Positions 2,694-45,828 of a DNA stretch of 64,000 nt are shown in pieces. Below the pieces are notes generated by a model. It had not been told where the DNA came from. It saw only the letters and a program-made list of their open reading frames with translations, and made no database searches. A program made the translations under genes and the position numbers. The DNA comes from Naegleria gruberi. Lineage: Eukaryota. Positions within the stretch are counted from its first letter, which is position 1. The number at the start of each line of letters is the position of its first letter. Location of the stretch: assembly GCA_000004985.1 (NCBI GenBank), contig GG738913.1. One strand, given 5' to 3'.

Positions 2694-5600
2694 TTATTTG
2701 AATAAGCGAACTAGTTGATAGATTATGAAAATAACCAACATAGCATGGAGAAGGAAATGCACAATCATTGATTTGCTTATCAATGATGACTGCTTTCGTT
2801 CTACAGATTCGAATTGGACGTGTAAAATTCTCATACTTGAAGCCATCAATCCAGCAAATGGAATCCAACTTGGTGCCATGAATGGATATCTTTCTTTCAC
2901 GCCACCAATTTGTTGTCTTTCCTCCATTTGGTATTGCTCTGAAACTAGCTTTGCCTTTCTGTGAAGGGAATGCACAAATGGTTCAGCATCGACAACAAAG
3001 GATTTGAATGGACCTCCCTTATTGAGAGATTTCACAGAGCTTGGTGTGAAGAAATACGGAGCAAAGCCTGACATTTCAAAAAGAATATTACTACCTGGTA
3101 GTTTCTTTTCCAACATTTCGAATATTTGAACAAGTTGTGACTTTTCAAAGTAGAGGAATAGACCTTCTGCAATTACCAAAACTGGAATTGACTCACCAAA
3201 TGATTTTCTTATGAAAGCAAGATCTGAAAATGTTGATTCTTCTAGAATAGATCCACTTTTACATTCGTATAGTGGTTGTTTCGTATTGTCATTATTGTTA
3301 ACAATATTAAAAACTTGTCTTCTCAATTCAATGACATTTGGCAAATCAATATCAATCCAATGCACCTTCTCATTCATTCCAAATAATCTTTCATATCTAG
3401 AACACAATCCACATCCCAAATTAACAATCATTACCTTTTCATGCTTAGCCAAACTCTTACTCACAAATTCTTGTGATTTCCTATCCAAGACAATAGTTCT
3501 CCCAACAATATTAGTTCTGGTAATTCTATCATTCTGAACATCAACAGAGAGATCTTCTGGTAAGTTTTGGAAGATTTTCACAGCAATTGGATCATATAAA
3601 ATTCCATCGCTTTCAAGAGATTCGAGAGCTCTGGAAACGAGTGGAATGTAGAGAGTTCTTTCGAGAGGTGTGAGGACAGAGTTCTTATCTTGAGCAATGT
3701 CTACGTCAAAAGGAGTTGGATTATGTGATGATTGTTGTGGAGAGCCAAGAATGGAATGTGAAATAAGATTCGAATAATGTTTGTCAAGTTGATGTCCACA
3801 ATTCTTAACAGTAATAATATTCAATCCATTTCCTGCAAACTTATTCCAGTTGTTAATTGTATTTCCTGTTACTAATTTATCAAATTCGCCTCTGAGAGCA
3901 ATAACTGGACAGTCAACTTGGTATTTTCCAAAAATGTCATCGTCATAACAATGATATTTCAATAAAAAGTCAAATTGGTGTTTGAAAAGTGGAATTTCCA
4001 TCAAATCTCTAATCTTCTTTGCCTTTTCATCCAAGTTCTCAATTCCTTCTGTTACATTAGGGAACAAGTCAAGATCGACAATTCCATAAATGATCGATTG
4101 ATCTCCCAAAGTTTTAAATTTCACATAAGAATCACCATGAAGCGAATTTCCAGGAGCATTTCCACTAACAATCAATTTTACAGGTTTCTTATTGAACTTG
4201 AATTGAATAAATCTTGTAAATTCAAGAGCAACCAAAGCACCCATGCTGTGTCCATAGATTGTAACCGTATTGGAATTAAATAGTTGATGGACACAATCCC
4301 AAACTTGCATGAAATGAGCAGTCCAATCAGAATTATTTCTCAAATAATCCAAATTAATCACATAAATGGAAAATTCTTCAAGATTTAAATCTCTAAAATC
4401 ATGAACTGTTCCACCAAGTGCTGGAAAACAGAGTAAAACATTCTCTGATGATCTTTCTTGGATAGTTTCTAATAACAAGTGCTTTTCTAATGAATTGGTT
4501 TGATTTGGACTATTAGATTGTTGTGTTAATTGTTGATTGGATGATTTTCCAGAATTGGAAATCATTTCAACAAGAGTAGAAACCGAAACTCCAGATAAGA
4601 GAGTCGAAACTGTAATACTTGATGAAAATTCTCTTGATAGAATATTTCTTATTTCTACACTCATGAGAGAATCAAGACCATAGTCAACAAGTGGTTTCTC
4701 CAGTTGAATTTCACTTTCGTCCATTCCAAAAACTTTGGATACAATATCTGAAACCTTTCTAACAATTCCATCAACGTTAGAATCTGTAGTTGTTGATTTT
4801 CCTTCAATATTTGATTCCTTTCTTTGACGACCAAATGTTACATGAGGTGAAAGTGAATCCTCAGGCATTTCAAATCCAAAGAAGGTCATTGCAGGAGGAA
4901 GATCCATCTCGTGTTCAATCAAATATTCGAAATGATCAAGTAAATCATGAACATGCATAGCTCCAACCCAGAAATATTCATCAACTTCTGCCTTAGTTGC
5001 ATATCCAGCTCCTGTAATCAAACTTAGACCTAAAGATTGTCCAGCCAATCCACAACTTCTTCTATAGCTACACAAAGATTCTAAGAAATAATTTCCACTA
5101 TTATAGTTTGATTGACCGAATGCTCCAACCAAAGAACTGAAAGAGCTCAACATTAAAAAAGTGGATAGATTGCAATTGAGCTTGATTGAACATTGGTGAA
5201 GGTTGAAACCTCCGAGAATCTTTGGTCTGGCAACAGTTTCGTACTTTTCTTTTGTCATCTTATTTGCAGCACAATCGGATAAAACCATTGCTGAATGGAC
5301 AATTCCTGTAATTGGGAATTTTTGATGGATTTCTTGCATTGTTTGATAAAGAGTTGAGTAATTGCAAATATCAGTAATGTAAACATCAATAGATGCATTA
5401 GGGTTATTCAGCATAATCTTGTCAATGATCAATTTTTCAGATTTGTTTGGCATTCTTCTTGTAAGAAGGGCAATGTTTGAGACTTTCATCTTTTCAACAA
5501 GCCATTCGCACATCTTTAATCCAATTCCACCCAATCCTCCACTAATAACCCAACAACCGTTATTCAATATCTTCTTTTGAGATGTCAAAGAATTATAAAT

Positions 5601-8600
5601 AACATTGGAATAAAAGTGAACAAATCTTCCACTTTCAGAATAAACAATTTCATCATGAGTATAAACAGATTCAAGGACATCATCAACAATTTCACCAATT
5701 GAGTTTTCTGAACATTTAGGTTGCATATCAATAACCTTTAACTTCTTTTGGAATATCTCAGTTTGAATTGATCTCAAACATCCAACAATAGAAGATTGAG
5801 AAATGTTACATTCCTGATTGTAACCAAAAACTGAACTAGTTAGAGCAACGAATTTACATCTGCCAGTATTGAACTTGAGTATCTTACAAATTGAGTACAT
5901 AGATTCCACACAATTGGAAACTGTTTCAAACTCGAAAGAGCTTAAAGAAAGTGGCCAACCGAAAATAATTCCACAGATATTCAAAGTTTGATTGAATATT
6001 GATTCGAAATGTTCAAAATCTGCAGGATTAATAACGAATCCAGAATCAAGTTGTTGGAATTTTTCACCTTGAATAATTTTGACAACTTTTACACCTCTAG
6101 ATTTCAATTCTTCACACAATAAATTTTCCTTTTGTGTTTCAGAAGAGAAGAACAACCATCTCTCAACATTTTTCTCTTTCTTCTTTGCTATAATGTAATT
6201 TGCAGTACCAATTGGCAACATGACATTTGAAGGGAAATCACAATCCAATAAAACTTGTTCCCACTCATTTCCTGATAGCAAAGCAGATTGCTTTCTGAAG
6301 GAATCCTTAAAATACCACCATCCCTTCAAAGTACCAACGAAAAAGTGTAAAAATTGAGCTCCAAGAGGATCAGACTCAACTAGGACTAATTGACCATTGG
6401 AAACCAACAAGCTTGAAATGAGTGAAAAGACGGATTTCAAATCTTGAGTAGCATGAACAACATTAGCAGCGATTACCAAATCAAACGAATCCTTTTCAAT
6501 GAATTCTGAAGAAACAAATGGCTTTTCAATATCTAATAAAGAAAATTCCATAAAATATTCGAATTGTGCAAACTTTTCCTTTGCCTTCACCAAAAACAAT
6601 GGTGAAATGTCTGTGAAAACATACTTCACATCTATATAATCTCTCAATGAATCAAGAATTGGTAAAATTTGTTTGGTTGTTCCTCCAAGTCCAGCTCCAA
6701 TTTCCAAAATTCTCAAAGTCTTCTTTTTACCATTCTTTGGAATGGAGTTCAAAATAAAATCAAACAATGGTTTAGTTTGATGAGAAACTTCATCATAATA
6801 ATCATTCAATACATGTTCTTTTCTTGAAAATAGGACAGAAACAGGATCTGCCTCACCAGTTAATAATTGCTTCATGTGAATTAAACTATTTTCCACCAAA
6901 TCGATCAGATTGGAATAAAGATCAATTCTTGGAAATTCTCTCAAGGATTTGATAATATTAAATCTATTAGGAAGATCACTAACTACTGTATAAGTATCTG
7001 AATCATATTGGACAAGATTCATTTGTAAAGCCAACTCAATAGTCAATTGAGCAAGTCTCTTCAAATGTTCTGGTTGAATCCTAGAATTCAAAACAGAAAG
7101 CTCGATAGTAGAACTTTCACATAACTCTTGGAATACATTCAAACAATATTCAACACAAACCTTGGTAACAAATCTATTAAGAGATTCGTGTTCGTTTGAG
7201 TATTCATTGAGTTTGAAATTGAGAATAAACTCTTGCAATGATTCCATAGAAGGAAGAATAGATTTAGAATAGATTGGTTGTGGTGCAAAGTTTGATGATA
7301 CAATAGAAGTTTCTTGAAGTTTCTTTTCTTTGGTTTCCAAAGGTGAAACTTTGAAACCATTGAAAGAAATAAATGGCTCATTAGATTCTCCCAAAACTTG
7401 TAAATCACAAGTAATTTCTTTTGTTTGAGCATTCTTCGAATATTTAACACATCTGGTGATGGTGTGTTTCGAATTGTTTGGTTTTCTATGTGGGATGATT
7501 GTAATTTCGTCTGTGGAAATTGGAAGATAGGTTGTATCCTCTGGCATTGAACAAATCATCATTTGGAAACATGAATCAAGCAATGCAGGATGCCATGTAC
7601 AATATCTTTCGTCATTTTCCAAAGCTTTTGGATGGGAAATTTGTGCCATCAAAACTTCTCTTGTTTCGTCATGTCCAACTTGGCTGTACAAATCCAATCC
7701 TTGGAAACAAGGTCCATAATTGAGGCCACATTTGGACAGATTGAAATAGATATTCTCCTTATGAATGTTTTGTGTTTTTTCATCAAGATTTTCTGTGAAA
7801 TTTCTGAAAATATCAAAGGCTTTCAATTCTCTGTTTGTGAAATTGATGGAATCACCAGAATTAGAAGAATCTAGAGTTTTGAAAGAACCAAAGGCATGTA
7901 AAGTCCAATCACAAGGTAGCTTATTTGATAACTTGGAAGGATCTTTGGAAATTTCTGAATAATTAATAGATAACAAGTCAACCTTCTTTTTGCTGAAAAT
8001 TCTAAACTCATTAGCATACAAATTCAAATGAACTTGAACAATTCTAGGCTCTTGTTGTAAAATCATTGGATTTACCACTTTGAAATTGACTAGACGAAGC
8101 TCTTCAACATTCTTGGACGAGTTATCAAGAATTGCTGCAGAACTAATCTCAACGAAACCAGAATATGGGAAGAATACTTCATTTTCAATCTTGTGATCTC
8201 TAATATACATTTGATCAGTGTTAGAACTAATATCAATAAGACTCTCATAGATAATATCTGGAGAATTTTCCATTGGATTGAATTTTCTGTTACCCAAAAG
8301 TGGATGATTAATAGTTTCGAATTGACCAATTCTCCATCTCAAAGATTCATAAGATTCTGACCAACAAGATTGTTTCTGGAAAGGATATTTAGGAATTCCA
8401 TCCAATATCTTACTATTCTCTCCATATCTATTAATTTGTTTCCAATCAAGTTTAGAATATCCATTCACAAACAATGAGGAGACAACTTGTAACAAACTCA
8501 TTTGTTCATCCTTCTTTCTAATCAATGTTGGAATTACAGAAATAGAATCTTCATTTCCTAATGAAGAAGACGAAATATCCTTAATGTATCCATTCAAAAC

Positions 8601-11184
8601 CGGATGGGAAGATATTTCAATAACATATTTGATTGAGTTTTTGTAAGTGTGAAAAATCTCTTCCATAGCTTGTGAAAACAAAACCTTCCCTCTGACATTA
8701 TTCCACCAATATTCTGGTGTTGACATTTCTTGGAGGTTTGACTTTCTTCCAGTGACAGTAGAGAAAACGGCTTGAATATTATCATTTGGTTTGGTTCCTC
8801 TTTCCTTTTTTGAGATTCTATTAGAAAGAACTTCTAATAACTCTTTCTTGATTACTTCCATATGGCTGGTATGGAATGCAGCTTCATTTCTCAAAAAGAC
8901 ACAGTTGACTCTTGAGTTTGGTTCATTTTCCACATACTTGGTGAGATCAAGTTGCAATTGTTTCAACACATGTTCTTCACCACCAACTACAACGGAGGAA
9001 TTACTATTTACAGATGCAATCTCAACAGTATTGTTAAATCCAAGAATATCCAAAATTGAGGCCAATTTGTCCAATCCTAAATTGATAGCCATCATTTTAC
9101 CTGTTTTAGAAAATTCTTTCAAGATGGTTGCACATTTGTTTTGCAATCTTGCTCTATGATAAATCAAGAATACAGCTTCCTCTAGAGTGAGGCATCCATG
9201 CACGTATGCAGCTGTCACTTCTCCAACTGAATGTCCAACAACAATTCGAGGAGTGACTCCATATGATTTCAATACTTCATAACAACCACATTGTACTGCA
9301 AAGATACATGGTTGAGCAATGTTGGTTGAGTAAATTCTGGTGTCCTTTTCTGTTCTTGTAGTCAACTCTTCTACAATTGACCACTTGTCATTGGTTGGCA
9401 TTATCTTTTGCATTTCTGAATCAATTCTTTCAACTGTGGCAGAGAAAACATTGTTGGTTTCCAATAATTGTCTTCCCATAGCAAACCATTGAGGTCCTTG
9501 TCCAGAGAAAACAAAGCAAATATCGGATTTTTCTTCTCTCTTGCTTGAGTTACCAATGCTAGTTGATTCATTAGATGAAAAATTGGAGGACAATTGGAGG
9601 AGCTTTTCAACGAGCTCATCTTTGTTGTTGTAAATGATAGAAGCTCTGTAGTCTCTGAATTGACTCTTCTTTTCACAATAGTTGAAAAGTAAATCATCTT
9701 GATTGCATTGAGCTGAAAACTCAGCAACGCTACTAGACATCATCTTGAGTGAGTATTCACTCTTGGCAGAAAGTGGAAGAATTCTAATACCTTCTGATAT
9801 GCTATTCTTTCTTTGATGTTCTAATTGCTCAACACTTTGCAAGATGCAATGAGCATTAGTACCACCCATACCAAAGGAATTAATTCCAATAATAACAGGA
9901 TTGATATTAGAAGGGATTTCTTCTTCTTGCATGACAACTCTAATTTGTTTCTTCTCAAACTCAATGTGAGGATTGAGTGTGCTCTCAGTGCAATGAATAC
10001 TCTTAGCTATCTTCCTATGTTTCATCATGAGAATAGCTTTGATAATACTTGCAATCCCACTTGTTGCCTCTGTGTGACCAATATTACTCTTGACAGAACC
10101 AATTGGTAACTTGTCAAGTTTGTGCTTTCTTCTTTCTCTTCCAAAGAATGAATCAAGAGCTTGAGTTTCAATCTTATCTCCAATAGTAGTTCCAGTTCCA
10201 TGACTTTCAACATAATAAACATGTTGTGGAGGAATGCCACTCTTGTTGTACACTTGTTCCAATAATTCAACTTGTCCTTCCAGAGAGGGCATTGTTATTC
10301 CACTCTTTCTTTCTCCATCGTGATTGACCCAAGTTGACATGATCAAAGCATGAACTCTTTCATGTTGTGAAGAATTCGCATGCTTGTATGTGTTGATGAT
10401 GAGATGATGAATCTAATTTCTTCAAAATTAATACAGCAACACCTTCAGATTTTCCATAACCATCAACATGTGAAGAGAAGGTTTTACATCTTCCATCTGG
10501 TGCTGCTGCTCCAATAAGCTTTTGAGATACAAATTCTTGTGGAATGTAGTTTAAATTAACTCCAGCAACAATGGCCATTTCGCATTCATCTCTCTGTAAA
10601 CTTTCACATGCACAATTGAGTGCTACCAAACTTCCTGAACACATGGTATCGAGAGTGAATGACGGGCCTCTCAAATCGAAATGATACGAAATCCTGGCAG
10701 AATTGTTAGCTGGTGAAGAGTTTATCAAACTGTACGAGTTGTAAGTTTGCATGTCATGCCAGCCTTTCATGGTGAGATAATCTTGGTTCATCACAGAACA
10801 AAACACACCAATGTTTCTTCCTCTGATTTCTTCCCATTTAATTCCAGCATCCTCCAAGGCAATGTAAACTTGTTGAAGAAGGAGACGATGTTGTGGATCC
10901 ATGGAGCATGCTTCCTTCTTGGAAATTTCAAAGAATTCAAAATCAAACTCATCTAATGGTTTCTCCAAGAAGTGAGCCCTGTTGTAGGTTTGCTTATTGT
11001 TGTGGAATCTTGATGATTGTCTTTCCTTTGGTATGGTTGAGCTGGTGTCACTACCGTCAAGAAGAACTTGCCAGAATGATTCAACATCCACTGCCTGTCC
11101 AGGGAACATACAACTCATTCCAATGATGCCCATTGGTGAGTTTTCAGCAGAGTTTGATGGAGTAGTAGAATTGATAGAAATCAT
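2694..11184 (-). CDS. Type I iterative polyketide synthase: KS-AT-DH-cMT-KR-ACP-TE with a C-terminal TcmP/LCM-family methyltransferase. The reading frame is broken by a +1 shift at TGA (10360-10362)
   Basis: - The N-terminal ORF 10360..11184 carries the KS start IIGMSCMFPG and the active-site DTMCSGSLVAL.
- The downstream ORF continues the KS (VNHDG, HGTGT, NIGHTEATSG).
- AT: GHSVGE.
- DH: HPLLG.
- C-methyltransferase: LEIGAGLGGTT.
- KR: ISGGLGGIGL.
- ACP: LVDYGLDSLMSVE.
- TE: GHSMGALVALE.
- LCM/TcmP-like methyltransferase: LYIPLVSRALES...VNLGCGLCSRYERL.
- No ER domain is present.
- Stop is TAA. Confidence 0.85.
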
Positions 11185-11705: not shown

Positions 11706-11951
11706 ATGATTATCTACATACTTGTGGCTATTCCATTTCTGTTTCTTCTCTATGTTGGCTATCTATTGTGCAAGTTGTATGTATTCAACAGATATCCAAA
11801 GAATGTTTTTCTGGCGCCGCACTATCTAACAGAGAATGTTGTCCAAACCAAAAAGTTCAACAAGAATCCTTTCAAGAAAGAAAAACTTGCAGAGCATTAT
11901 GATGCAATCATTATTGGCTCAGGTGTTAGTGGCATTATTTGGGCAAGATGA
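11706..11951 (+). CDS. First coding segment of the RETSAT-like oxidoreductase: N-terminal TM helix plus FAD-binding GxGxxG. The junction to the main ORF is unresolved
   Basis: A-rich leader before the ATG. Hydrophobic IIYILVAIPFLFLLYVGYLL followed by YDAIIIGSGVSG. It ends at an in-frame TGA (11949-11951). The main ORF is in the +1 frame, but a further TGA and a TAG intervene. Confidence 0.45.
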   Translation: MIIYILVAIPFLFLLYVGYLLCKLYVFNRYPKNVFLAPHYLTENVVQTKKFNKNPFKKEKLAEHYDAIIIGSGVSGIIWAR

Positions 11952-12000: not shown

Positions 12001-13380
12001 ATGTTGTCCCTTGATGAGAACTTTGATAATCTGTCCATTATTAATTCTGCTACAAATGAAAAGTTGTTAGAAATAGAAATTCCTGAAGGTCAAGACAAGT
12101 TAATCAAAAAGCTCAAAGAAGTCTTTCCAGAAGAATCCAAAGCCATTGATGAGTATGTTGAGATATCGTTTCCACCAAAGTATGAAATTATTCCAGTTAT
12201 TATTTTAAAGTGTTTCCCATTCATATTTTCCAAATTATTCAAGTATCTAGTTGCACCAAAATTTATGAATTATGTCCATACTAGTATTGGTCAAGCTCTT
12301 GACAAATTGACGTCCAATCAGCTTCTTAAGAGTGCCATTTGCTATATTGGCATAGATTATGGTTCAAATCCAAAAGCAACTCCACTCTATGAGCATTCAA
12401 TGATTCACAATATTTTCAAGAATGGTGGTCACATTCCAAAGGAAGGAGCAGACGATATTGTCGAAAGTTTGATAAAGGTCATTAGAAAAGGAGGTGGAGA
12501 TGTGATGAGCAAGGCAAATGTTGCTTCAATCCACATCAATAAGGAAGGAAAATGTGGAGGAGTGTGCGTGTTAAAGAACAAGGACTCTATCATTATTGAA
12601 TCTCCGATTGTAATTTCATCTGCTGGAGTTTACAATACTTATTCAAAGCTCATTCCTCGTCCAATAAGAGAAAAACTTGGCTACAATCACTTCAAGTACA
12701 CGCCTTCATATTCTGTTCAGGCAACCTTCCTTGGCTATGATGGCACAATAGAAGAATTAGGATTAAAGTTCCAAAACTATTTCATCATGACTAACCCTGA
12801 TTTTGATGGTCAATTTACCAGATACATGGAAAGTGATGGAGATATTGACCCAAAGAATGGCATTGATATTCCAATCTTGATAGCCAATCTCAGACCTTAT
12901 AATAACAAGGTTTCAATGACTATCCTCAGCTTTGCCAATCATGCATGGTTTCAAGAGTGGAACCATCAACGAGTTGGACAACGTAGTGTTGACTATGAAG
13001 ACTTGAAGGAGAGAATTGCCAATCGAGCCCTCGAATTATTATACATGAAACATCCACAACTTGAAAATAGACACTCTGTAATGAGTACTTCCTCACCAAT
13101 TACATTTAATCATTATCTATCCAATAATTTTGGAGATTACATGGGTTTTAAGAGAGTGGTTGGTAATGATGATGGTGTATTCCGTTGGGGAAGGCCAATG
13201 TCCAATCTGGAGAATTTGTTTTTGGTTGGGCAGGATATCTTTGCAGGAGGTGTGCAGGGAGCAATGTTGAGTGCTTTAATTACATGTGGATGCGTGTTGA
13301 GGAGGAATTTGTTTGATGACTTGGCAAAGGCCGTTGAAGAGATGAAGAAGTGGAAGGCTTTGCTATTTTGTTTTAAATAA
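12001..13380 (+). CDS. All-trans-retinol 13,14-reductase (RETSAT)/CrtI-family FAD-dependent oxidoreductase, main body
   Basis: KKLKEVFPEESKAIDEYVEI aligns with RETSAT KEKFPQEEAIIDKYIKL. The C-terminus FLVGQDIFAGGVQGAMLSALITCGCVLRRNLFDDL aligns with the RETSAT/CrtI C-terminus [34 protein letters not shown]. Stop is TAA. Confidence 0.8.
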   Translation: MLSLDENFDNLSIINSATNEKLLEIEIPEGQDKLIKKLKEVFPEESKAIDEYVEISFPPKYEIIPVIILKCFPFIFSKLFKYLVAPKFMNYVHTSIGQALDKLTSNQLLKSAICYIGIDYGSNPKATPLYEHSMIHNIFKNGGHIPKEGADDIVESLIKVIRKGGGDVMSKANVASIHINKEGKCGGVCVLKNKDSIIIESPIVISSAGVYNTYSKLIPRPIREKLGYNHFKYTPSYSVQATFLGYDGTIEELGLKFQNYFIMTNPDFDGQFTRYMESDGDIDPKNGIDIPILIANLRPYNNKVSMTILSFANHAWFQEWNHQRVGQRSVDYEDLKERIANRALELLYMKHPQLENRHSVMSTSSPITFNHYLSNNFGDYMGFKRVVGNDDGVFRWGRPMSNLENLFLVGQDIFAGGVQGAMLSALITCGCVLRRNLFDDLAKAVEEMKKWKALLFCFK

Positions 13381-14045
13381 CTTTTATTAATTATTTTTTT
13401 TAATTGGGAATCATATTCAAAACTATTCTTACGAGGTCTTCCTCTTGGTCGTTTAGGAAGACTCTTCTTTAATTCTTGTTCTTCCTTCATGGACTCTATT
13501 GTTGATATGAAGAATGTATTATTGTTACCTTTGGTACTTATGACGGTGTTGTTATTATTGGTATTTACAGGGGTGGTAGAAGAGGAGCTGCTAGTGGAGT
13601 AAGCAAGGATCGTCCTATGATTGTTATTATTATTAATATTTACAAATGATGATAAAGATTTTGGGGTTTGTTGCTTGCATTCTTCCATGATAGCAACATT
13701 GTTATTATTAGGAACAACATAATTATTGGATAAATTCAGTGGCTGATTCAATAGTGCCTTGTTTAGATGGTGATTGTTCATTGGCCAATTGTTGTTATCT
13801 TCATCATATGATGGAAGGAAGGAATCATCCACTGTGGGAGCATAATTCTCATGGTAAGGATTATTATTGGAGCTACTTAAAAGCAGATACAACAAGAATA
13901 GTGTCTGCTCGTTTGTGATATTGAAAGGTGAATGGTTTGGAAGCATTTGTTTTGTTACTGGTACCATAACTAATAACACATTATAATAGCCATTTACTAT
14001 GGTATGTGAACCCTGCATTCCTACTCTTCTGGAAATATATCTCAT
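13137..14045 (-). CDS. Asn/Ser-rich low-complexity protein with an AT-hook (KRPRGRPRK), putative DNA-binding
   Basis: Long ORF containing a GRP-core AT-hook and poly-N tracts. The 3' 240 nt overlap the end of the RETSAT-like ORF on the opposite strand, so the true 3' end is uncertain. Confidence 0.35.
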   Translation of the reverse strand: MRYISRRVGMQGSHTIVNGYYNVLLVMVPVTKQMLPNHSPFNITNEQTLFLLYLLLSSSNNNPYHENYAPTVDDSFLPSYDEDNNNWPMNNHHLNKALLNQPLNLSNNYVVPNNNNVAIMEECKQQTPKSLSSFVNINNNNNHRTILAYSTSSSSSTTPVNTNNNNTVISTKGNNNTFFISTIESMKEEQELKKSLPKRPRGRPRKNSFEYDSQLKKIINKSYLKQNSKAFHFFISSTAFAKSSNKFLLNTHPHVIKALNIAPCTPPAKISCPTKNKFSRLDIGLPQRNTPSSLPTTLLKPM

Positions 14046-16457: not shown

Positions 16458-16528
16458 CTCGAACGCCGGGAATTGAACCCGGGTCGCCAGAGTGACAGTC
16501 TGGAATGCTACCACTATACCACGCCCGA
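16458..16528 (-). tRNA. tRNA-Asp (anticodon GTC)
   Basis: The minus-strand read TCGGGCGTGGTATAGTGGTAGCATTCCAGACTGTCACTCTGGCGACCCGGGTTCAATTCCCGGCGTTCGAG folds as a cloverleaf. The anticodon loop CTGTCAC and the T-arm CCGGGTTCAATTCCCGG match the eukaryotic tRNA-Asp pattern. Confidence 0.8.
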
Positions 16529-23957: not shown

Positions 23958-24109
23958 TAATTTTAAAAATTATTAACAATAAAATTTACAATAAAAACTT
24001 GAATGTAAACTAAAATATCCATATTCGATATGAAGAACTATCAACTATTTAATGTCCACTTAAAAACATAAAGATGAATAATTCCAATAATTGTTTATTA
24101 TTTGAAGTT

Positions 24110-25402
24110 TTACAAGAGTAAAACTGCAATCATGACAAATAAAGTCATAACAGAAATGACAGATCTAACTGCAGAGCTACCTCTTGAAGTTGTTGCAATG
24201 ACCTTATCAGTATATTGAACAGAGTATTCCTTTCTGTCCATTTCAAGAGTCCATCCCTTATCGATTTCAGCCTTACCAGCTTCAACAATCCATGGCTTTA
24301 AGACATAGCTTCCTTCAGTTGGTGAGTTTTGAATCTTGACAGACATGGAGAGAGTACCAGTACCAGGAGCAACACTCTTTTGAATTGCCTTACCAAACCA
24401 AGAATAATCTGGTAATCTCAAAAAGTCAACTACAATATCCACATTGACATTGGCAGAATAATCAACATCAACTGTAACAGTTTGACTATTCAATGGAATT
24501 TTAACTGGTGGAGTCTTAATACGAATGGAATTACCAACCAATGGTGCATTATTATTATTGGTTGATCCAGAATTTGAACCAGTTGATGGAGCGGGTGTAG
24601 GAGTAACTGGGTTACCTGTAGATGTAATTTGAGCATCCCAACATGAGGTATATGGAGCACTTCCAGCATTGAATACCCATCTCCATTGGAAAGCATAACG
24701 ACCCTCAGGAGTGTTAGCTGGAATTGTGAAACAATTAGTACACAATGCCTTATCCATATTTTCACAGAATTTTGGACAATTTTGGAATCCTTTACCACCA
24801 CCATTTTCCAAAGTATTTGGAGCAACGTTATTTCCCCAATCTTGCAATAATTTCCAATCATTAGCACCTGGATCACTGGTTGGATTCAAACTAGAGTAGT
24901 AAATCTTGTTTCCATTATCTGGAATGTATTGGTTGGTGCATGAAGCAGCAACGTGATTCTTGGCTGGATATGCAAGACAAACCTTTTGTCCTGGTCTGTA
25001 TGTGGCCATTGGATATGATGATCTGTAAAAAAATCATGTGGTCAACCAGGACATGTTAAAATTGCAGAGAAACTTACGTATAGAAAGATTGATAGTTTCC
25101 ATTGGTAAGACCATATTTACAACTAGTATCTTGGTGATTGTATCCAGTATCTCCACCGAAAGCGCTGTTAATAGCTATTAGAAAGTTGAAGAAATAAATA
25201 TTCGAAATGTAAATATATTCGAATTAAATGAACTTTACGTACCAGCATGTGCAGACCAATTTCTTGGACGTGCTCTACATTTAGAAGCACTGTAATATTG
25301 ACCGTTTTCTTCAGTATAATCAGTGCAGTCAATCCATGAGTGAGCATAGACAGCAGACAGACACAAGCTCAACACGAATAATGAAAGAATAACTTTGTGC
25401 AT
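24110..25402 (-). CDS. Three-exon gene for a secreted Cys-rich protein whose predicted mature N-terminus is His (LPMO/X325-like copper-protein candidate), with a Thr/Pro linker and C-terminal hydrophobic (GPI-like) tail
   Basis: Exons at about 25402-25243, 25174-25078 and 25022-24110. The introns are 68 and 55 nt, with GTACGT and GTAAGT donors and AG acceptors. Signal peptide MHKVILSLFVLSLCLSAVYA, then HSWIDC. TPTPAPSTGS linker. Tail VISVMTLFVMIAVLLL. Stop is TAA. Confidence 0.6.
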
Positions 25403-25944
25403 TTTTTTCCTTGATGATTCGTATTAAAAAGAAGCAATCGATGGATTATAATGTCACACCTTCATAATTAAATCGGGTGGCTACTTGACATCTTGTGCTC
25501 ATCAACATACCACCCGCAAGAATCCTTGCCAAACATTGTTTCAGTGTGCTTATTGATATTCACTTTTCAATTATTACAATAAAATATTTGAATTGATTTG
25601 GAAGAGACATTGTTAATTATTGTAGTTGATATAATTGATATTGAACGAAAATTATAAAGATGAAACCTGTTATCTGTTAATATCTTTGAACGGTTGGATA
25701 TTTTGGCCCATGTTTGGGTTCTCATTGTTAAATTCTAACAAACGTCTGGATAAAATAGTTGTGTGGCTAAACCCTTCGGAAATTTCAATGCTGATTTCGT
25801 GATTTGAAAGCACTTAATCTAGAGTTGAATATCCAGAAATTAATAATGGAATGGTATGTAGATTCCATTTATTCCATTGTATAAGATTTACAGTAGTAGC
25901 AGATGATGAAGGTGTGAAATCTTATTGTGTGTTTAATCCATCAT

Positions 25945-27255
25945 TCATAGAGACTCAATGAAACTGTCCATTGTTTCAGAGAGTGGAAGTACAATAGTGT
26001 TGCTTGACTTGTTTTGAATCCAATCCTTCAAAACAGGTGGTAAATTAGAATCATTATAGAGTTGGAGGAAAATGTCTGGAATGATGAATAGGATTGGAGT
26101 GTTCTTCTTGATATCATTCAAGAGTTTGTTCATTGGGAATCTTGAGAGTGGGACACCTAACACGACAACCAGATCACAATTTTCAAAATCACTTCTCTTA
26201 TTATCTGAAATGGAGGATGGATAGCTCTCTCCCAACATGAGAATATTTGGTTTCAGACTGCAATCCTTCTTGGCCATTTGTTCACATTTTCCCTTCTTAT
26301 TGGTTGGAACATCCTTGTTAGGGAACATGGCAGCTCCTGTTTTGAAATCAAAAGTCTTTTCACAAGTTGAGCAAGTAAAACTATCAAGTGTTCCCAAGCA
26401 ATTAATAACTTTTTCATCTTCAAATGGTAATTTTTCAATACTTTCACTGTAAATCCTTTGAATTTTCTCTTGTTCATCGAGACTCATTAAAAACTTCAAT
26501 ACCTTGCTTGGCTTTTTATAAATTCTACTCCATCCATATGTTAATTTCTCCAAATAATTCAATAATGGTCTTGGATTTTCCACAAATCGATCAAAATTAA
26601 ATAAATCATCAGTACTTCCTTCATTAACTTCCAAATCCTGTTTCATATCTTGCTTTCTAGTCTTGATTTGTTCAAGTTGAAAATTCTGAATTTCCTCAAC
26701 GGATGCATATTCAATTCCCTCAACAACTTTCTCAGCCTTATGCTCAATATTATAGAGAATGTGTAAATCACCAAAAACATGACTCGAATGCACAGCATTT
26801 GTCTGTTGATAATACTTGATTGTTGCCTTTTCAAAAACATCCTTCGGAAGCACAGCTTGTGTCGTTATCGTCGGTCCAGTCACTACAATAATCTTCTCCT
26901 TTTCCTTTAGTAGATTTCTAGCCTTTTCCAAGAGAGTAGAAGAAGAAGACTTTTCCTCTTGAATTTTCCTCTTTAATTGATCCGTTAGTGATTGTTTTTG
27001 TATTCTTTTCTGAGAAGTTGTTGTATAATAGCCTTCTTCATTATTCTCTTCTTCTATTGTTGTTGTTGCTTCTAATTCTTCTTTGAAAGTTGTTCTTGTT
27101 CTTGTGGAGGAAAAAGCCTTCACTGATGAGTGAGAGAAAAATCTCGTTTGTTGAATTAATGATGATGATGAAGAAGAAAATAATGTTCTTGTTCTTCTTG
27201 TGGATTTGATGATGATTTTATTGTTGGATAAAATTGAGGATGGAATTTTGAACAT
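25945..27255 (-). CDS. Sirtuin (Sir2)-family protein with an N-terminal mitochondrial-type presequence and an atypical NAD-binding motif
   Basis: Ser/Arg/Thr-rich N-terminus. The zinc ribbon CSTCEKTFD...KCEQ..C followed by LKPNILMLGES...DLVVVLGVPLS matches sirtuin C..C...C..C, LKPDVVFFGE and DLLLVIGTSL. The canonical GAGIS is replaced by VVTGPTIT. Stop is TGA. Confidence 0.55.
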   Translation of the reverse strand: MFKIPSSILSNNKIIIKSTRRTRTLFSSSSSSLIQQTRFFSHSSVKAFSSTRTRTTFKEELEATTTIEEENNEEGYYTTTSQKRIQKQSLTDQLKRKIQEEKSSSSTLLEKARNLLKEKEKIIVVTGPTITTQAVLPKDVFEKATIKYYQQTNAVHSSHVFGDLHILYNIEHKAEKVVEGIEYASVEEIQNFQLEQIKTRKQDMKQDLEVNEGSTDDLFNFDRFVENPRPLLNYLEKLTYGWSRIYKKPSKVLKFLMSLDEQEKIQRIYSESIEKLPFEDEKVINCLGTLDSFTCSTCEKTFDFKTGAAMFPNKDVPTNKKGKCEQMAKKDCSLKPNILMLGESYPSSISDNKRSDFENCDLVVVLGVPLSRFPMNKLLNDIKKNTPILFIIPDIFLQLYNDSNLPPVLKDWIQNKSSNTIVLPLSETMDSFIESL

Positions 27256-29701: not shown

Positions 29702-29785
29702 CTTAAAAGGTTCCGATGAGACGGAATTGAACCGCCGACCATAGGATGACAGAGCTAACTACAGTCCCATGCTCTACCAACTGAG
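29702..29785 (-). tRNA. tRNA-Tyr (anticodon GTA) with an 11-nt intron after position 37
   Basis: The minus-strand read is CCGATGATAGCTCAGTTGGTAGAGCATGGGACTGTAG[TTAGCTCTGTC]ATCCTATGGTCGGCGGTTCAATTCCGTCTCATCGG. The acceptor stem CCGATGA/TCATCGG is perfectly paired. The intron position is canonical for eukaryotic tRNA-Tyr. Confidence 0.85.
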
Positions 29786-29922
29786 CTATCATCGGATATG
29801 ATTGGAAAGTCGAAATAACTTTTTATAAATACTTGTCATCAAGTCTCCTTTTAATCAGACATTGCTGCAAAAGCATGCTTTTTGGTGTTAGGCCTAACAA
29901 TTCATTAAAATTCTTGAGAAAA

Positions 29923-42281: not shown

Positions 42282-45200
42282 ATGGTCCTTTCATGTCAGT
42301 CATGCAAAACAACAATATTCACACATATTCTGTGTGGTTTATTGGTAGTTTACTTGGTGATGATGGTTGGAAGTGTGCAGGGTTTAGAAAATTTAAATAC
42401 GAAACTGGACGCAAGAAGCCGAATGAGCTCCGAAGGTCTTTCAAAGAGAGGATTGACAGGTATGGCACAAGCAATGGCAACGGATGTTTATATGAGGGCC
42501 TATGTGGATCCAATTAATGGTAATAATGATGTTTCGAATAATTGTAGTATGCAGAGTTCTCCCTGTGCTAGTCTAAAGATGGTTTTTAACATATTAGAAA
42601 GGATTCCGAATTATGTTGAAGATGGAAAAACAGCCTATCTAGCAATTTTCCTCATGAATAATATTGGACAAGCACAAATTAATGAAAATTGTGGAATTGT
42701 AGTTTCGAATGCTTTTCAAAAGAAGTTTCCAGAAATATTATTTTCCACAGATTCGACACTCTACTTGAGAAAGTTGAGTTGTGGCAGTAATCAAGGGTTT
42801 TTGAAAAGTAACAATGAAGTAATTCCATTCCTGATCCAATTTTTCTATATGGACCTTTCTAATATTGCAATTTCAGTACAAAACAACACTGAGGTTTGGA
42901 CTCTACTTTGTATCATTTCTGATTCATCATTCAAAAGTGAAAGAGTAACATTTGATACTTCTGAAATCTTTGGAATCAATTCAGTCGATTCGAATAATTT
43001 CATAATTGATGGAACAACTTTACGAAATGCAACTTTAAATTTTATTTGCATGGAAGCTAGTTTAACGATTAGATATAGTAACTTTATTGATTCGGCATTG
43101 ACATTGGATCCTCAACGATTATCCAGTACGAGAAGTATTACCATTTCGAGTTCACATTTTAAATATTCGAATCGTCCAAATTTGAAGAGTTTTCCAAGTT
43201 ATTTCATTACTAATAATAGATATCCATTTGAGAAGTTTATAATTAGGGACAGTACGTTTGAGGGAAGTGGAAGGGATTCGGATAATATTGGAGGAATTTC
43301 TATTCCTCATATTTATCCATTTATTTTGGATGTCGATGGATCAAACTTTAAGAAACTCTATTCGAAAGAAGGTGGAGCTCTTAATATTGCTGGTTATTCT
43401 ACAGTTATCATCAGTCGAACAGTATTTGATTCGAATAGAGCTTTATACATGGGTGGCTCTATTCGATTGAAAGGTTTAGCATCAAGAGCCAACTTTCTCC
43501 AATGCACCTTCCTAAACAATGAACAAATTGTACAAAATTATGCATCTTCCAGTAGTGAACTATCTTCCAATGCACTCTATGGAGGAGGTGCCATTTACTT
43601 TTCACAAGATTCGCCTTCTTCTATTCTATTTAACACTTGTGTCTTTAAGAATAATAGTGCAGGAGGTTTGGGTGGGGCTTTTTTGAGTTATTCTGGAAGA
43701 TCAGATGAGTTTATATTTGTGGAATCTGAAATTAATGGAAATAGGGCTGGATATTATGGTGGAGGAATTGCAGTTTTGGTCAACCCATCACTTTCCATTT
43801 ATGATGAATATGTTTCAATATTTGATGCCAAAAAAACAAAGATTTTGAGAAATGAAGCAACTATAGGAGGTGGATTATTCTTCAATACATTGGATACAAT
43901 TAGTTTGGATTCAGAATCGTCAATTTCCAACAATGTTGCCACCAAATATTCACCAGGAGTATTTTACAATAAGATTAATAAGTTGCAGAATTCTGCAGTG
44001 GTTGACAATAACTATATTAGAGATGGTTCATCAATTATTCAATCCCAAACTAATCAATATCCTTCAACAATATCTCTATTTCAGCAGGATCAAATTAGTG
44101 AACTTTCTAATGCTGAAATTATTCCTGGCTACACTCAAATATTTTATGCCAAGTTTAAGGATGCAAATGGAAACCTTGCAAATACTTCACTCCTATTCAA
44201 CATGCAAACCTATTGGAAACTCACACTAACTTCAATTGAGGGAACCATTATTATTGATGATTTGAATTTCAGTCCATCTGGAGACTTTCTCATGATTGAA
44301 TGCAAAACCTCCTTATTGAGAAGAGACATTAAGGGAGACAGATTTTCATTAAGTATGACAATGGACACAAAATCTGCTCTTCAGGCATTTTCTGACATGC
44401 AAGTTGTCAAATCTTTCAATATTTCTGTTGGATCATGCGGAGCCGCTGAATATATTGAAGTGAGAACAGCCAACGATGGAAATGACTATTATATTTGTTC
44501 AAACAGACCATCTATCATTGTTGGAGTTACGATTTCAGCATTGTTTGTGGGTTGCATTGTTTGTATTGTGTTGGTTATTTTCACTGTGAAATTCTGTTTC
44601 TTGTATAAGGACCAGAGAAGAAAGGCCAAGAAGGAAAAGGAATTGGAAATGAAATTAAGAGATTTTGAGTTGAATTATACTAAACTTGGCGACACTAATG
44701 CTTCTGCACTTTCTAGTCAATCTGCTTCTGGCATTGATTATTGGATGATTAAGGAAGAGGACATTGAAATTCAACAAAAGGTTGCAGAAGGCGCTCAGGG
44801 TAGTGTTTTTAAAGGAAAATGGTAAGTTTAGTTCTGTTTCTGCTTGTTTGTTAAATTTTGAAAAAGGAAAAACAAGACACAAGTTGCCATCAAAACATTC
44901 AAATTGACATTGGAGGAGGAGGCAGAGGCATCATTCCAACAAGAAGTAGGTTTACTGAGAGCTGTTCACCATGAAAATATTGTCACATTCTATGGAGTTG
45001 TGGTTTTGGAAACGACAAGATGTATGGTTACTGAATTTGTGCCAAACAACTCATTAGAATTTTGGATTACCAAAATGAAGAAGGGAGAAAAGAAGATTTC
45101 ATTCAAGGAAAAGTTGAAAATCTTGTTGGATATTGCAGCAGCCATGAGTTATTTGCATGAACTCAATCCTCCAATTATTCACAGGTAGGTTTATTGAAAT

Positions 45201-45828
45201 TTTGATTAGCAATATTTATTCGAAATTCAGAGATTTGAAACCTGGAAATGTATTACTTGACAATCAAATGAAAGCCAAAATTTGTGATTTGGGAGTTAGT
45301 AAAATTGTGGCCGACAACATGGTCGAGAAAACAAATCAAATTGGAACTTTCAATTTCATGGCCATCGAGACCTTTAATGGAACTGAGTATAATGAGAAGT
45401 GTGATGTTTTCAGTTATGCAATCATTTTGTGGCAATTGATTTTTGAGGAGAATGCAATTTATTCCAATGAATTATTGAAAAACAAACGAGTGAGCTATTT
45501 CATGACTGATCAGGATAGACAAGTTTATGAAAAGTTGACACCTCAAAATTTCAATAATTATTATATTGCCAAGTTGATTAGTGAAGGATTGAGATATCCA
45601 CTGCCTTCAATATCTAAAAGTTTGGAAGAGGAAAAGAAACTCTTTGTATGGGTTGAGGAATATATGAACCAGGAAGGAATTGATACTAGTAGACTCACTA
45701 TTCGAATCTTACCAATTTATTTCTCATTAATTGAGTCATGTTGGAGAGCAGATTACAATCAAAGACCAAGTTTTTCATTCATTGTAAAGAAACTCCAAGA
45801 AATGATTGAGTTGGCAGATAAAATTTAA
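42282..45828 (+). CDS. Receptor-like protein kinase: signal peptide, Pmp-type parallel beta-helix ectodomain, single TM, cytoplasmic TKL-like kinase (three exons)
   Basis: GGAI and FxxN repeats (FLNNEQI...GGGAIYF, FKNNSAGGLGGAFL, NGNRAGYYGGGIAV). TM IIVGVTISALFVGCIVCIVLVIF. Kinase motifs GAQGSVFKGKW, VAIK, HRDLKPGNVLLD and DLGVSK. Introns at 44823-44876 (GTAAGT, 54 nt) and 45185-45230 (GTAGGT, 46 nt). Stop is TAA. Confidence 0.8.

What the first reader, a model, noticed from the sequence alone, without database searches (positions are those of the whole stretch)
10344..10440. The PKS ketosynthase domain is interrupted between the catalytic Cys half and the VNHDG/HGTGT half by a +1 shift at TGA
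ORF 10360..11184 ends ...VLILKKLDSSSHHQHIQACEFFTT-TGA. ORF 2694..10346 starts in the +1 frame, and that frame is open for about 20 codons upstream. No GT-AG intron exists between the halves: the only GT lies after all the AG dinucleotides. A low-complexity Ser/His insert precedes the site.
Basis: seen in the sequence. Interest (0 to 1): 0.6.

Follow-up and report, generated by a model that had tools for sequence, protein, structure and literature searches.

The report
Frameshift break in a Naegleria PKS gene
A large, otherwise intact polyketide synthase gene of the amoeba Naegleria gruberi is broken by one frameshift in a floppy surface loop, which looks like an ordinary very recent mutation or a sequencing error, not an intron or a programmed recoding signal.

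Summary
On the minus strand, ORF A (11184..10360, 274 aa) holds the ketosynthase (KS) N-terminal half with the catalytic Cys and stops at TGA 10362-10360. The KS C-terminal half and the rest of a ~2,830-aa iterative type I PKS continue in the +1 frame to 2694.

The window is Naegleria gruberi NEG-M nuclear DNA. Four homology-verified introns in the window are canonical: GTRRGT..AG, 46-72 nt, 71-86% AT. Nothing like them can bridge the break. Every GT-AG option deletes the conserved strand VAVLILKKL.

The break lies in a 58-nt low-complexity stretch that encodes a disordered surface loop, 10 residues longer than in 98.6% of KS domains. Homology and codon usage cannot place the shift within 10413..10362. 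The TGA is only the first off-frame stop.

I found no +1 slippery codon, no downstream RNA structure, and an overlap no longer than chance predicts. All catalytic motifs are intact, and 2,555 downstream codons are open. So the lesion is either very young or a consensus error; reads or PCR would decide.

Programmed +1 frameshifting is not excluded (~6%).

Interest: low.

The parts
10360..11184 (-). ORF A: start codon, 17-residue leader and KS N-terminal half with the catalytic Cys (DTMCSGS), ending at the premature TGA
   Evidence: PF00109, 2.3e-66, profile positions 3-250 of 252. (308 bits against a profile of 40 KS homologs).
10360..10362 (-). TGA, the first stop in frame A after the frame change. 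It is not the genome's preferred terminator.
   Evidence: 26 long ORFs in the window end in TAA 20 times, TGA 4 times, TAG 2 times.
10362..10413 (-). Zone where the A-to-B frame change must lie, with both frames open. One extra nucleotide (3n+1), or two missing, somewhere in here.
   Evidence: equal profile scores for a 1-nt deletion at each of the 17 positions tried, 10412 to 10364; the codon log-likelihood is flat.
10356..10413 (-). A 58-nt low-complexity stretch that encodes the loop. It is 31 nt longer than the 27 nt typical of KS domains and would encode a +10-residue S/H/Q-rich insert. Composition is 64% AT, coding-like.
   Evidence: In the AlphaFold model, residues 264-274 are the only internal segment with pLDDT below 50, lying between strands 248-256 and 279-288.
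10395..10410 (-). Perfect 8-nt tandem duplication TCATCATC|TCATCATC inside the zone. It also reads as an 11-nt imperfect tandem, 10409-10388. This is a sign of non-triplet slippage, but deleting one copy does not restore the frame.
10343..10387 (-). A 45-nt imperfect hairpin (quasi-palindrome) enclosing the TGA. It contains GCATGC and GAATTC back to back.
   Evidence: -12.2 kcal/mol, z = -2.5, 5 of 200 shuffles fold as well; it was chosen post hoc; the 12-mer occurs once, and 19 of 100 shuffles give at least one match.
2694..10361 (-). Frame B coding region. It starts with ERVHALIMSTWVNHDG (KS strand plus C-terminal half with HGTGT and NIGHTE), followed by AT, DH, C-methyltransferase, KR, ACP, TE and an LCM-like methyltransferase. 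There are 2,555 open codons.
   Evidence: frame B homology begins at or before 10361; all catalytic motifs are present.
10338..10340 (-). First ATG of frame B, 19 nt after the TGA. It lies inside the conserved strand VHALIMSTWV, so it is not a natural start.

Best explanation
The recorded DNA carries a single frameshifting lesion: one nucleotide too many (3n+1), or two too few. It lies somewhere in the 52-nt zone 10413..10362, within the slippage-prone low-complexity DNA that encodes a disordered surface loop joining the two thiolase-fold halves of the KS domain of a Naegleria gruberi iterative type I PKS.

Read as recorded, the mRNA is translated from ATG 11184, runs out of frame within the loop, and stops at the first off-frame stop (TGA 10362-10360). 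The product is a 274-residue KS fragment. The remaining 2,555 codons are not translated. This allele is therefore a null.

Because that long downstream frame and every catalytic motif are still intact, the lesion must be extremely young. I take it as most likely a genuine strain- or haplotype-specific null allele. That would fit a dispensable secondary-metabolism gene in the axenically kept laboratory strain NEG-M.

Shown: the break, its frame relation, its location in a loop, the absence of an intron, and the absence of recoding signals.
Inferred: that the lesion is a real mutation and not a consensus error, and its youth.
For: - Organism and context: window proteins are identical to N. gruberi XP_002670632, XP_002670682 and XP_002670623.
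- KS halves in frames A and A+1.
- Any of the 17 single-base deletions tried between 10412 and 10364 restores a full KS with the same profile score, about 519 bits.
- The repaired KS folds with pLDDT 90.5 and pTM 0.92. Its only disordered internal segment is the insert, residues 264-274.
- A 10-residue gap sits exactly here against the solved KS structures 7zma and 2hg4. Inserts of +4 to +12 residues at this loop occur in 7 of 981 KS domains, so the loop tolerates them.
- All catalytic motifs are intact.
- The nonsense target size of ORF B means P(no stop) falls to 5% at 0.72% neutral divergence, or about 0.29% if indels are included (the indel rate is an assumption). The only other N. gruberi-like DNA found differs by 0.75-1.25%.
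- A perfect 8-nt tandem duplication inside the zone shows non-triplet slippage there.
- The stop is TGA, a minority terminator here.
- The overlap length is expected by chance.
Against: - No independent copy of this junction could be found, whether reads, cDNA, a second strain or an ortholog. A real mutation therefore cannot be told apart from a consensus error.
- There is no homopolymer run in the zone, which is the usual site of 1-nt indels.
- The 8-nt duplication alone does not explain the shift: 8 = 2 mod 3, and 3n+1 is needed.
- A single lesion in an otherwise perfect 8.5-kb gene is also exactly what a functional recoded gene would look like.
Confidence: 0.46

Rival explanations
1. Consensus or base-calling error in the draft Sanger whole-genome assembly. 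The real NEG-M gene has one base fewer (or two more) in the loop-coding stretch and encodes an intact ~2,830-residue PKS.
For: - There is exactly one lesion in 8.5 kb. Everything else is intact, including all catalytic motifs and 2,555 open codons.
- The lesion lies in a 45-nt hairpin-forming quasi-palindrome containing GCATGC and GAATTC. From general knowledge of Sanger chemistry, this is the kind of context where band compressions occur.
- No other frameshift-type break was noticed among about 30 genes in the window. Errors of this kind are therefore rare, but a gene five times the average length (1,677 bp on average, PMC8296547) is a proportionally bigger target.
Against: - The context is not a homopolymer and is only 36% GC.
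- Draft consensus errors are rare. From my own knowledge, they run at roughly 1 per 10^4 to 10^5 bases.
- The zone shows real slippage products, the perfect 8-nt duplication.
- This cannot be tested here, because no reads are available.
Confidence: 0.37
2. Programmed +1 ribosomal frameshifting at ACA-UGA-A. The ribosome pauses at the UGA with tRNA-Thr in the P site, skips the U and reads GAA, giving ...EFFTT-ERVHALI... and a full-length PKS. This is antizyme-like stop-codon-dependent +1 recoding.
For: - Frame B homology (ERVHALI against the profile drilavi) begins with the GAA that overlaps the TGA.
- A stop codon in the A site is the classic pause signal.
- The product would have a 29-residue loop segment, a length seen in 3 of the 7 other KS domains with a longer loop, and it folds well.
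- The gene is otherwise perfectly intact.
- A modest hairpin encloses the site (z = -2.5).
Against: - ACA cannot re-pair in the +1 frame (CAU), and no codon in the overlap can.
- It matches none of the known +1 heptamers: UCC-UGA-U, CUU-AGG-C, GCG-AGU-U, AAA-UAR.
- The 63 nt 3' of the stop are less structured than shuffles (z = +2.0). The 111-nt window gives z = +0.55.
- The overlap length is as expected by chance (P about 0.41).
- The same protein quality is obtained from a shift anywhere in 51 nt.
- To my knowledge there is no precedent for programmed frameshifting in a PKS or in Heterolobosea.
Confidence: 0.06
3. RNA-level repair by an unconventional excision of 3n+1 nt: a tiny or non-canonical intron (for example the 25-nt GC-AG 10379-10355, or one of the AT-AC options), or editing.
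For: - Removing 31 nt (for example 10397-10367, AT..AC) gives a loop of canonical length and the best profile score, 532.5 against 519 bits.
- The loop is 31 nt (3n+1) longer than the canonical 27 nt.
Against: - Four homology-verified N. gruberi introns in this window are 46-72 nt, GT[AG][AG]GT..AG and 71-86% AT. The annotated mean intron length is 203 bp (PMC8296547).
- The junction interval is 64% AT, the same as coding DNA.
- All GT-AG options remove the conserved strand VAVLILKKL and score lower.
- The AT-AC pairs lack the U12 donor motif ATATCC.
- The higher score for a 31-nt removal only reflects the absence of a gap penalty.
- To my knowledge, nuclear mRNA editing is not known in Naegleria.
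Confidence: 0.04
4. A truly split KS: ORF A and ORF B are made as two polypeptides, with termination at TGA and reinitiation at ATG 10340, and they reassemble into one KS fold.
For: - The break coincides with the boundary between the two Pfam KS half-domains, which are the two thiolase halves.
- An ATG lies 19 nt after the stop.
Against: - The ATG lies in the middle of strand 279-288, VHALI-M-STWV.
- Frame B is homologous to KS upstream of that ATG, at ERVHALI, so the coding sequence predates the ATG 'start'.
- By established knowledge of eukaryotic translation, reinitiation after a 274-codon ORF is very inefficient.
Confidence: 0.02

Closest known systems
Young unitary pseudogene or null allele caused by a single frameshift indel in low-complexity coding DNA
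   Same: One lesion and a premature stop a few codons downstream. The rest of the gene is intact. The lesion sits in slippage-prone repeat DNA that encodes a dispensable loop.
   Different: It is not shown that the lesion exists in the organism's DNA as opposed to only in the assembly. The lesion is not at a homopolymer, and the visible 8-nt duplication does not by itself account for the shift.
Antizyme-type +1 programmed ribosomal frameshift (UCC-UGA-U with a 3' pseudoknot)
   Same: A +1 frame relation, with a UGA stop as the last zero-frame codon. The downstream frame carries the essential part of the protein.
   Different: The P-site codon differs (ACA). No 3' stimulatory structure is predicted. 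No conservation data exist. The overlap is no longer than chance predicts. The gene family has no known recoding.
Iterative (highly reducing-type) type I PKSs of amoebae and fungi, for example Dictyostelium PKS16 (PDB 9nju) and fungal HR-PKS
   Same: A single module, KS-AT-DH-cMT-KR-ACP, with all catalytic motifs. PDB hits include Dictyostelium 'Probable polyketide synthase 16'.
   Different: - No ER domain was detected.
- The C-terminus carries a TE plus an LCM-like methyltransferase and a hydrophobic tail.
- The closest sequences are bacterial or rotifer, at no more than 41% identity.
- The KS carries a 10-residue loop insert and the frameshift.
Canonical N. gruberi spliceosomal introns
   Same: Like an intron, the feature interrupts the reading frame of a nuclear gene.
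   Different: No usable GT..AG pair, no AT enrichment, and coding-like composition. The verified introns in the window are 46-72 nt and GTRRGT..AG.

Membership tests
U2-type spliceosomal intron (as in N. gruberi) | GT (or GC) donor and AG acceptor placed so that removal joins the conserved exons in frame | tested here: not met
   within 10413-10356 no GT precedes an AG. Every GT-AG 3n+1 excision starts at or upstream of 10434 and deletes the conserved VAVLILKKL. The only GC-AG option is 25 nt long.
U2-type spliceosomal intron (as in N. gruberi) | Length and composition like the genome's real introns (GTRRGT donor, AT-rich, at least ~46 nt) | tested here: not met
   four verified introns are 46-72 nt and 71-86% AT. 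The junction interval is 64% AT, against 66% for the ORF.
U12-type (AT-AC) intron | Donor /ATATCCTT and a branch-point TCCTTAAC near the acceptor | tested here: not met
   the AT..AC pairs exist only as chance dinucleotides, and neither consensus motif is in the interval.
Programmed +1 ribosomal frameshift site | Slow-to-decode zero-frame A-site codon (a stop or a rare codon) | tested here: met
   UGA at 10362-10360. This is trivially true of any frameshift-induced stop.
Programmed +1 ribosomal frameshift site | P-site codon able to re-pair in +1, or a known shift heptamer | tested here: not met
   ACA going to CAU cannot re-pair. No X-XXY type codon occurs in GAU UCA UCA UCU CAU CAU CAA CAC AUA CAA GCA UGC GAA UUC UUC ACA ACA.
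Programmed +1 ribosomal frameshift site | Stimulatory RNA structure 3' of the shift site | tested here: not met
   for 10362-10300, MFE is -6.1 kcal/mol, z = +2.0, and 198 of 200 shuffles fold at least as well; z = +0.55.
Programmed +1 ribosomal frameshift site | Conservation of the shift site and overlap in orthologs | not testable with these tools
   No ortholog or second copy of the junction was found.
Old (decayed) pseudogene | Several independent disabling mutations and loss of catalytic motifs | tested here: not met
   There is one lesion only. 2,555 codons are open and all motifs are present.
Translational bypassing (T4 gene 60 type) | Matching take-off and landing codons flanking a 3n+1 gap | tested here: not met
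   The take-off codon would be ACA before UGA. There is no ACA landing codon in frame B downstream.
Type I iterative polyketide synthase | KS (Cys-His-His), AT (GHSxG), ACP (DSL) and optional DH, MT, KR and TE on one polypeptide | tested here: met
   One search gives the Pfam domains. One search gives the motifs DTMCSGS, HGTGT, NIGHTE, GHSVGE, HPLLG, LEIGAGLGG, GGLGGIG, GLDSL and GHSMG. This holds only if the two frames are joined.

The most novel reading that the evidence does not exclude
The frameshift is real, fixed and decoded. N. gruberi would express a full-length PKS through stop-codon-dependent +1 ribosomal frameshifting at ACA-UGA-A, possibly to tune PKS dosage. This would be the first programmed frameshift in a polyketide synthase and in Heterolobosea, and it would use a shift site unlike any known motif.
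Probability: 0.05. Interest if true: 0.75.

Novelty: new member of a known kind. Interest (0 to 1): 0.15.

Why it matters
Mostly as a caution.

- Gene finders tend to bridge a lesion like this with a fake intron, or to split the gene in two. Either outcome would misreport the domain content of one of the few PKS genes of Naegleria, a genus whose secondary metabolism is said to deserve study (PMC9928731).
- If the lesion is real, NEG-M is a natural or laboratory knockout of this PKS, which is useful to know before looking for its product.
- If it is an artefact, the reference needs a one-base correction.
- Only the unlikely recoding reading would be of broad interest.

Tried and rejected
1. Giant-virus or bacterial origin. 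I suspected this at first from the dense ORFs and the F-box, BTB and NHL proteins. It was rejected because window proteins are identical to N. gruberi proteins and the window contains canonical introns.
2. Finding orthologs or a second copy of the junction. None turned up.
   - Two searches of the 5.8e9-cluster database gave at most 41% and 36% identity, mostly bacterial.
   - A junction-centred 140-aa query gave nothing.
   - Viral and JGI metagenome scans gave nothing.
   - The lists contained no protein longer than about 1,900 aa, so a long N. gruberi gene model may simply be invisible there.
3. The exhaustive representative search was swamped by multi-KS megasynthases, whose scores are summed. 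It was wasted.
4. Exact look-ups found nothing. I tried ORF A, ORF B from either ATG, and two GT-AG-bridged models (c3, c7). Look-ups of neighbouring genes did not return the N. gruberi scaffold annotation.
5. Locating the shift by KS-profile score or codon statistics gave flat results and no localisation.
6. A local source for the extra 31 nt: blastn-short against the window gave only chance matches.
7. The 8-nt and 11-nt tandem repeats as the lesion: their lengths are 2 mod 3 and 3n+1 is needed, so they are not sufficient alone.
8. GCATGCGAATTC as a vector or polylinker remnant: it is a single 12-mer, at least one match at up to one mismatch occurs in 19 of 100 shuffles, and I recall no matching polylinker. 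Dropped.
9. Literature. PKSs are noted in Naegleria (PMC9928731, PMC7285305), but nothing on this gene, on frameshifts or on pseudogenes. Supplement searches for its peptides and the neighbouring UniProt ids were empty. The 2010 genome paper is not held.

Full report
**What is there.** On the minus strand, frame A reads from ATG 11184 through a 17-residue leader and the N-terminal half of a ketosynthase (KS). It ends ...DGYGKSEGVAVLILKKLDSSSHHQHIQACEFFTT, then TGA at 10362-10360. Frame B is frame A +1. It is open from 10412, after TAG 10415-10413, and reads IHHLIINTYKHANSSQHERVHALIMSTWVNHDGERKSGITMPS...YYVESHGTGT... It then continues without a stop to 2694.

Pfam places ketoacyl-synt (N-terminal domain, profile positions 3-250 of 252) in ORF A. 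In ORF B it places, in order:
- Ketoacyl-synt_C (positions 4-118 of 119) and the KS C-terminal extension
- AT
- DH
- a C-methyltransferase
- KR
- ACP
- a thioesterase
- a C-terminal LCM-like methyltransferase

Against a profile built from 40 KS homologs, frame A aligns up to LKKLDSSSHH. Frame B aligns from HANSSQHERVHALI onward.

**Where it comes from.** The gene content includes actin, RCC1, ZZ, WW and LRR proteins, F-box, BTB/TLDc, a kinase, and an adenylate cyclase interrupted mid-domain. This pointed to a eukaryote. Exact look-ups settled it. The actin, NmrA-like and F-box ORFs are identical to Naegleria gruberi XP_002670632, XP_002670682 and XP_002670623, on a 236,320-bp scaffold. Published figures for N. 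gruberi NEG-M are 33% GC, 1.7 exons per gene and a mean intron length of 203 bp (PMC8296547). That matches the window's 28-37% GC.

**Not an intron.** Four introns in the window can be verified by protein homology running across them:
- 52808-52860 (53 nt) in the cyclase catalytic domain
- 53048-53119 (72 nt) in the cyclase catalytic domain
- 44822-44883 (62 nt) in a kinase
- 45185-45230 (46 nt) in the same kinase, joining ...IIHR|DLKPGN

All four begin GT[AG][AG]GT, end AG, and are 71-86% AT.

I enumerated every GT-AG, GC-AG and AT-AC excision of length 3n+1 around the junction.
- Every GT-AG candidate has its donor at or upstream of 10434. Each therefore deletes the conserved strand VAVLILKKL and scores lower.
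- The only GC-AG candidate that spares the strand is 25 nt long.
- The AT-AC pairs are chance dinucleotides without U12 motifs.
- The 58-nt junction interval is 64% AT, like the ORF at 66%.

**Where exactly the frame changes cannot be told.** I deleted one base at 17 positions, one per codon from 10412 to 10364. Each deletion gave a full KS with the same profile score, 517.5-519.9 bits. A codon-usage likelihood is flat across the zone. The TGA is simply the first stop met after leaving the true frame. Off-frame stop densities are 5.1% and 9.8% per codon. A 17-codon two-frame overlap is therefore unremarkable, with P about 0.41.

**The site is a dispensable loop.**
- Across 981 KS domains, 967 have exactly 19 residues between profile positions 268 and 286. 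Seven have 4-12 extra. This gene, once repaired, would have 29.
- Alignments to the solved KS structures 7zma and DEBS 2hg4 show a 10-residue gap exactly here.
- An AlphaFold model of the repaired KS has mean pLDDT 90.5 and pTM 0.92. Strand 248-256 (VAVLILKKL) and strand 279-288 (VHALIMSTWV) flank the loop. The only internal segment with pLDDT below 50 is residues 264-274, which is the insert.
- The coding DNA is microsatellite-like. It contains a perfect 8-nt tandem duplication, TCATCATC x2 at 10410-10395. That shows non-triplet slippage has occurred here. However, deleting one copy does not restore the frame.

**No recoding signals.**
- No codon in the overlap can re-pair in the +1 frame.
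- ACA-UGA-A resembles no known +1 heptamer.
- The 63 nt downstream of the stop fold worse than shuffled sequence (z = +2.0).
- A 45-nt hairpin encloses the stop. It was picked post hoc and is only modest: -12.2 kcal/mol, z = -2.5.
- In 26 long ORFs of the window, stops are TAA 20 times, TGA 4 times and TAG 2 times. The TGA is not the preferred terminator.

**Age.** All catalytic motifs survive: KS Cys-His-His, AT GHSVG, DH HPLLG, the methyltransferase GAGLGG, the KR Rossmann motif and Tyr, ACP DSL, and TE GHSMG.

ORF B offers 1,245 nonsense-creating substitutions out of 22,995 possible. Under neutral drift the chance of remaining open drops to 5% at 0.72% divergence. It drops at about 0.29% if frameshifting indels are added at an assumed 10% of the substitution rate.

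The only other N. gruberi-like DNA I could find is an ENA metagenome contig, L001. It differs from the window by 0.75-1.25%. So there are three possibilities: the lesion is younger than the split between those strains, it is not in the organism at all, or it is decoded.

**Verdict.** The simplest account is an ordinary one-lesion frameshift at the DNA level, in slippage-prone loop-coding sequence.
- I give about 0.46 to a genuine, very young null allele. That is plausible for a long, dispensable secondary-metabolism gene in an axenic laboratory strain.
- I give about 0.37 to a consensus error in the draft assembly.
- The tools here cannot separate these two. No reads, cDNA, second strain or ortholog covering the junction could be retrieved.
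- Programmed +1 frameshifting at the TGA remains possible but unsupported (about 0.06).
- Unconventional RNA excision gets about 0.04. A two-polypeptide split KS gets about 0.02 and is contradicted by specific observations.

The finding is real but ordinary. Its practical value is as a flag for re-sequencing and for careful gene modelling of this PKS.

Noticed in passing
window 2694-11184 (-): The PKS has an unusual single-module architecture: KS-AT-DH-cMT-KR-ACP-TE, then a C-terminal leucine-carboxyl-methyltransferase-like domain and a hydrophobic tail (...MIVHFLLHAMLVIFIIYQLVRLFK). No ER domain was detected. Its nearest relatives in 5.8e9 protein clusters are mostly bacterial, with bdelloid-rotifer PKSs among them, at no more than 41% identity. 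That hints at a laterally acquired or very divergent gene.
   Followed up: partly
window 24091-26472 vs locus L001 (ENA ERZ929261, contig k127_568908): A metagenome contig is 98.8-99.2% identical to this N. gruberi region but lacks 261 nt (window 25416-25676). The missing stretch has no GT..AG ends, so it is an indel polymorphism and not an intron. This implies a second N. gruberi-like strain in a public metagenome. No contig of that strain covering the PKS was found.
   Followed up: partly
window 10372-10383 (-): GCATGCGAATTC: the SphI and EcoRI palindromes sit back to back inside the frameshift zone, at the base of the 45-nt hairpin. It occurs once in the window. At least one match (up to one mismatch) appears in 19 of 100 shuffles, so it is probably chance.
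   Followed up: yes
window 44822-44883, 45185-45230, 52808-52860, 53048-53119 (+): Four short canonical introns (46-72 nt, GTRRGT..AG) are verified by kinase and cyclase domain continuity. They are much shorter than the published annotated mean of 203 bp for N. gruberi.
   Followed up: yes
window 16458-16528 (-) and 29709-29796 (-): tRNA-Asp(GTC) and tRNA-Leu(TAG) genes lie between protein-coding genes.
   Followed up: no
window 12001-13380 (+) and 13137-14045 (-): Two long ORFs on opposite strands overlap by 244 nt. Neither has a Pfam hit, neither is in the protein collection as an exact sequence, and 12001-13380 is also absent from the encoding-contig index. The true gene model here, possibly including 11706-11951 with a GSGVSG dinucleotide-binding motif, is unclear.
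   Followed up: no
window 48078-53400 (+): A large (over 1,577 aa) TPR/PAS-containing adenylate/guanylate cyclase has two introns inside its catalytic domain. It is typical of the expanded cyclase family of Naegleria.
   Followed up: partly
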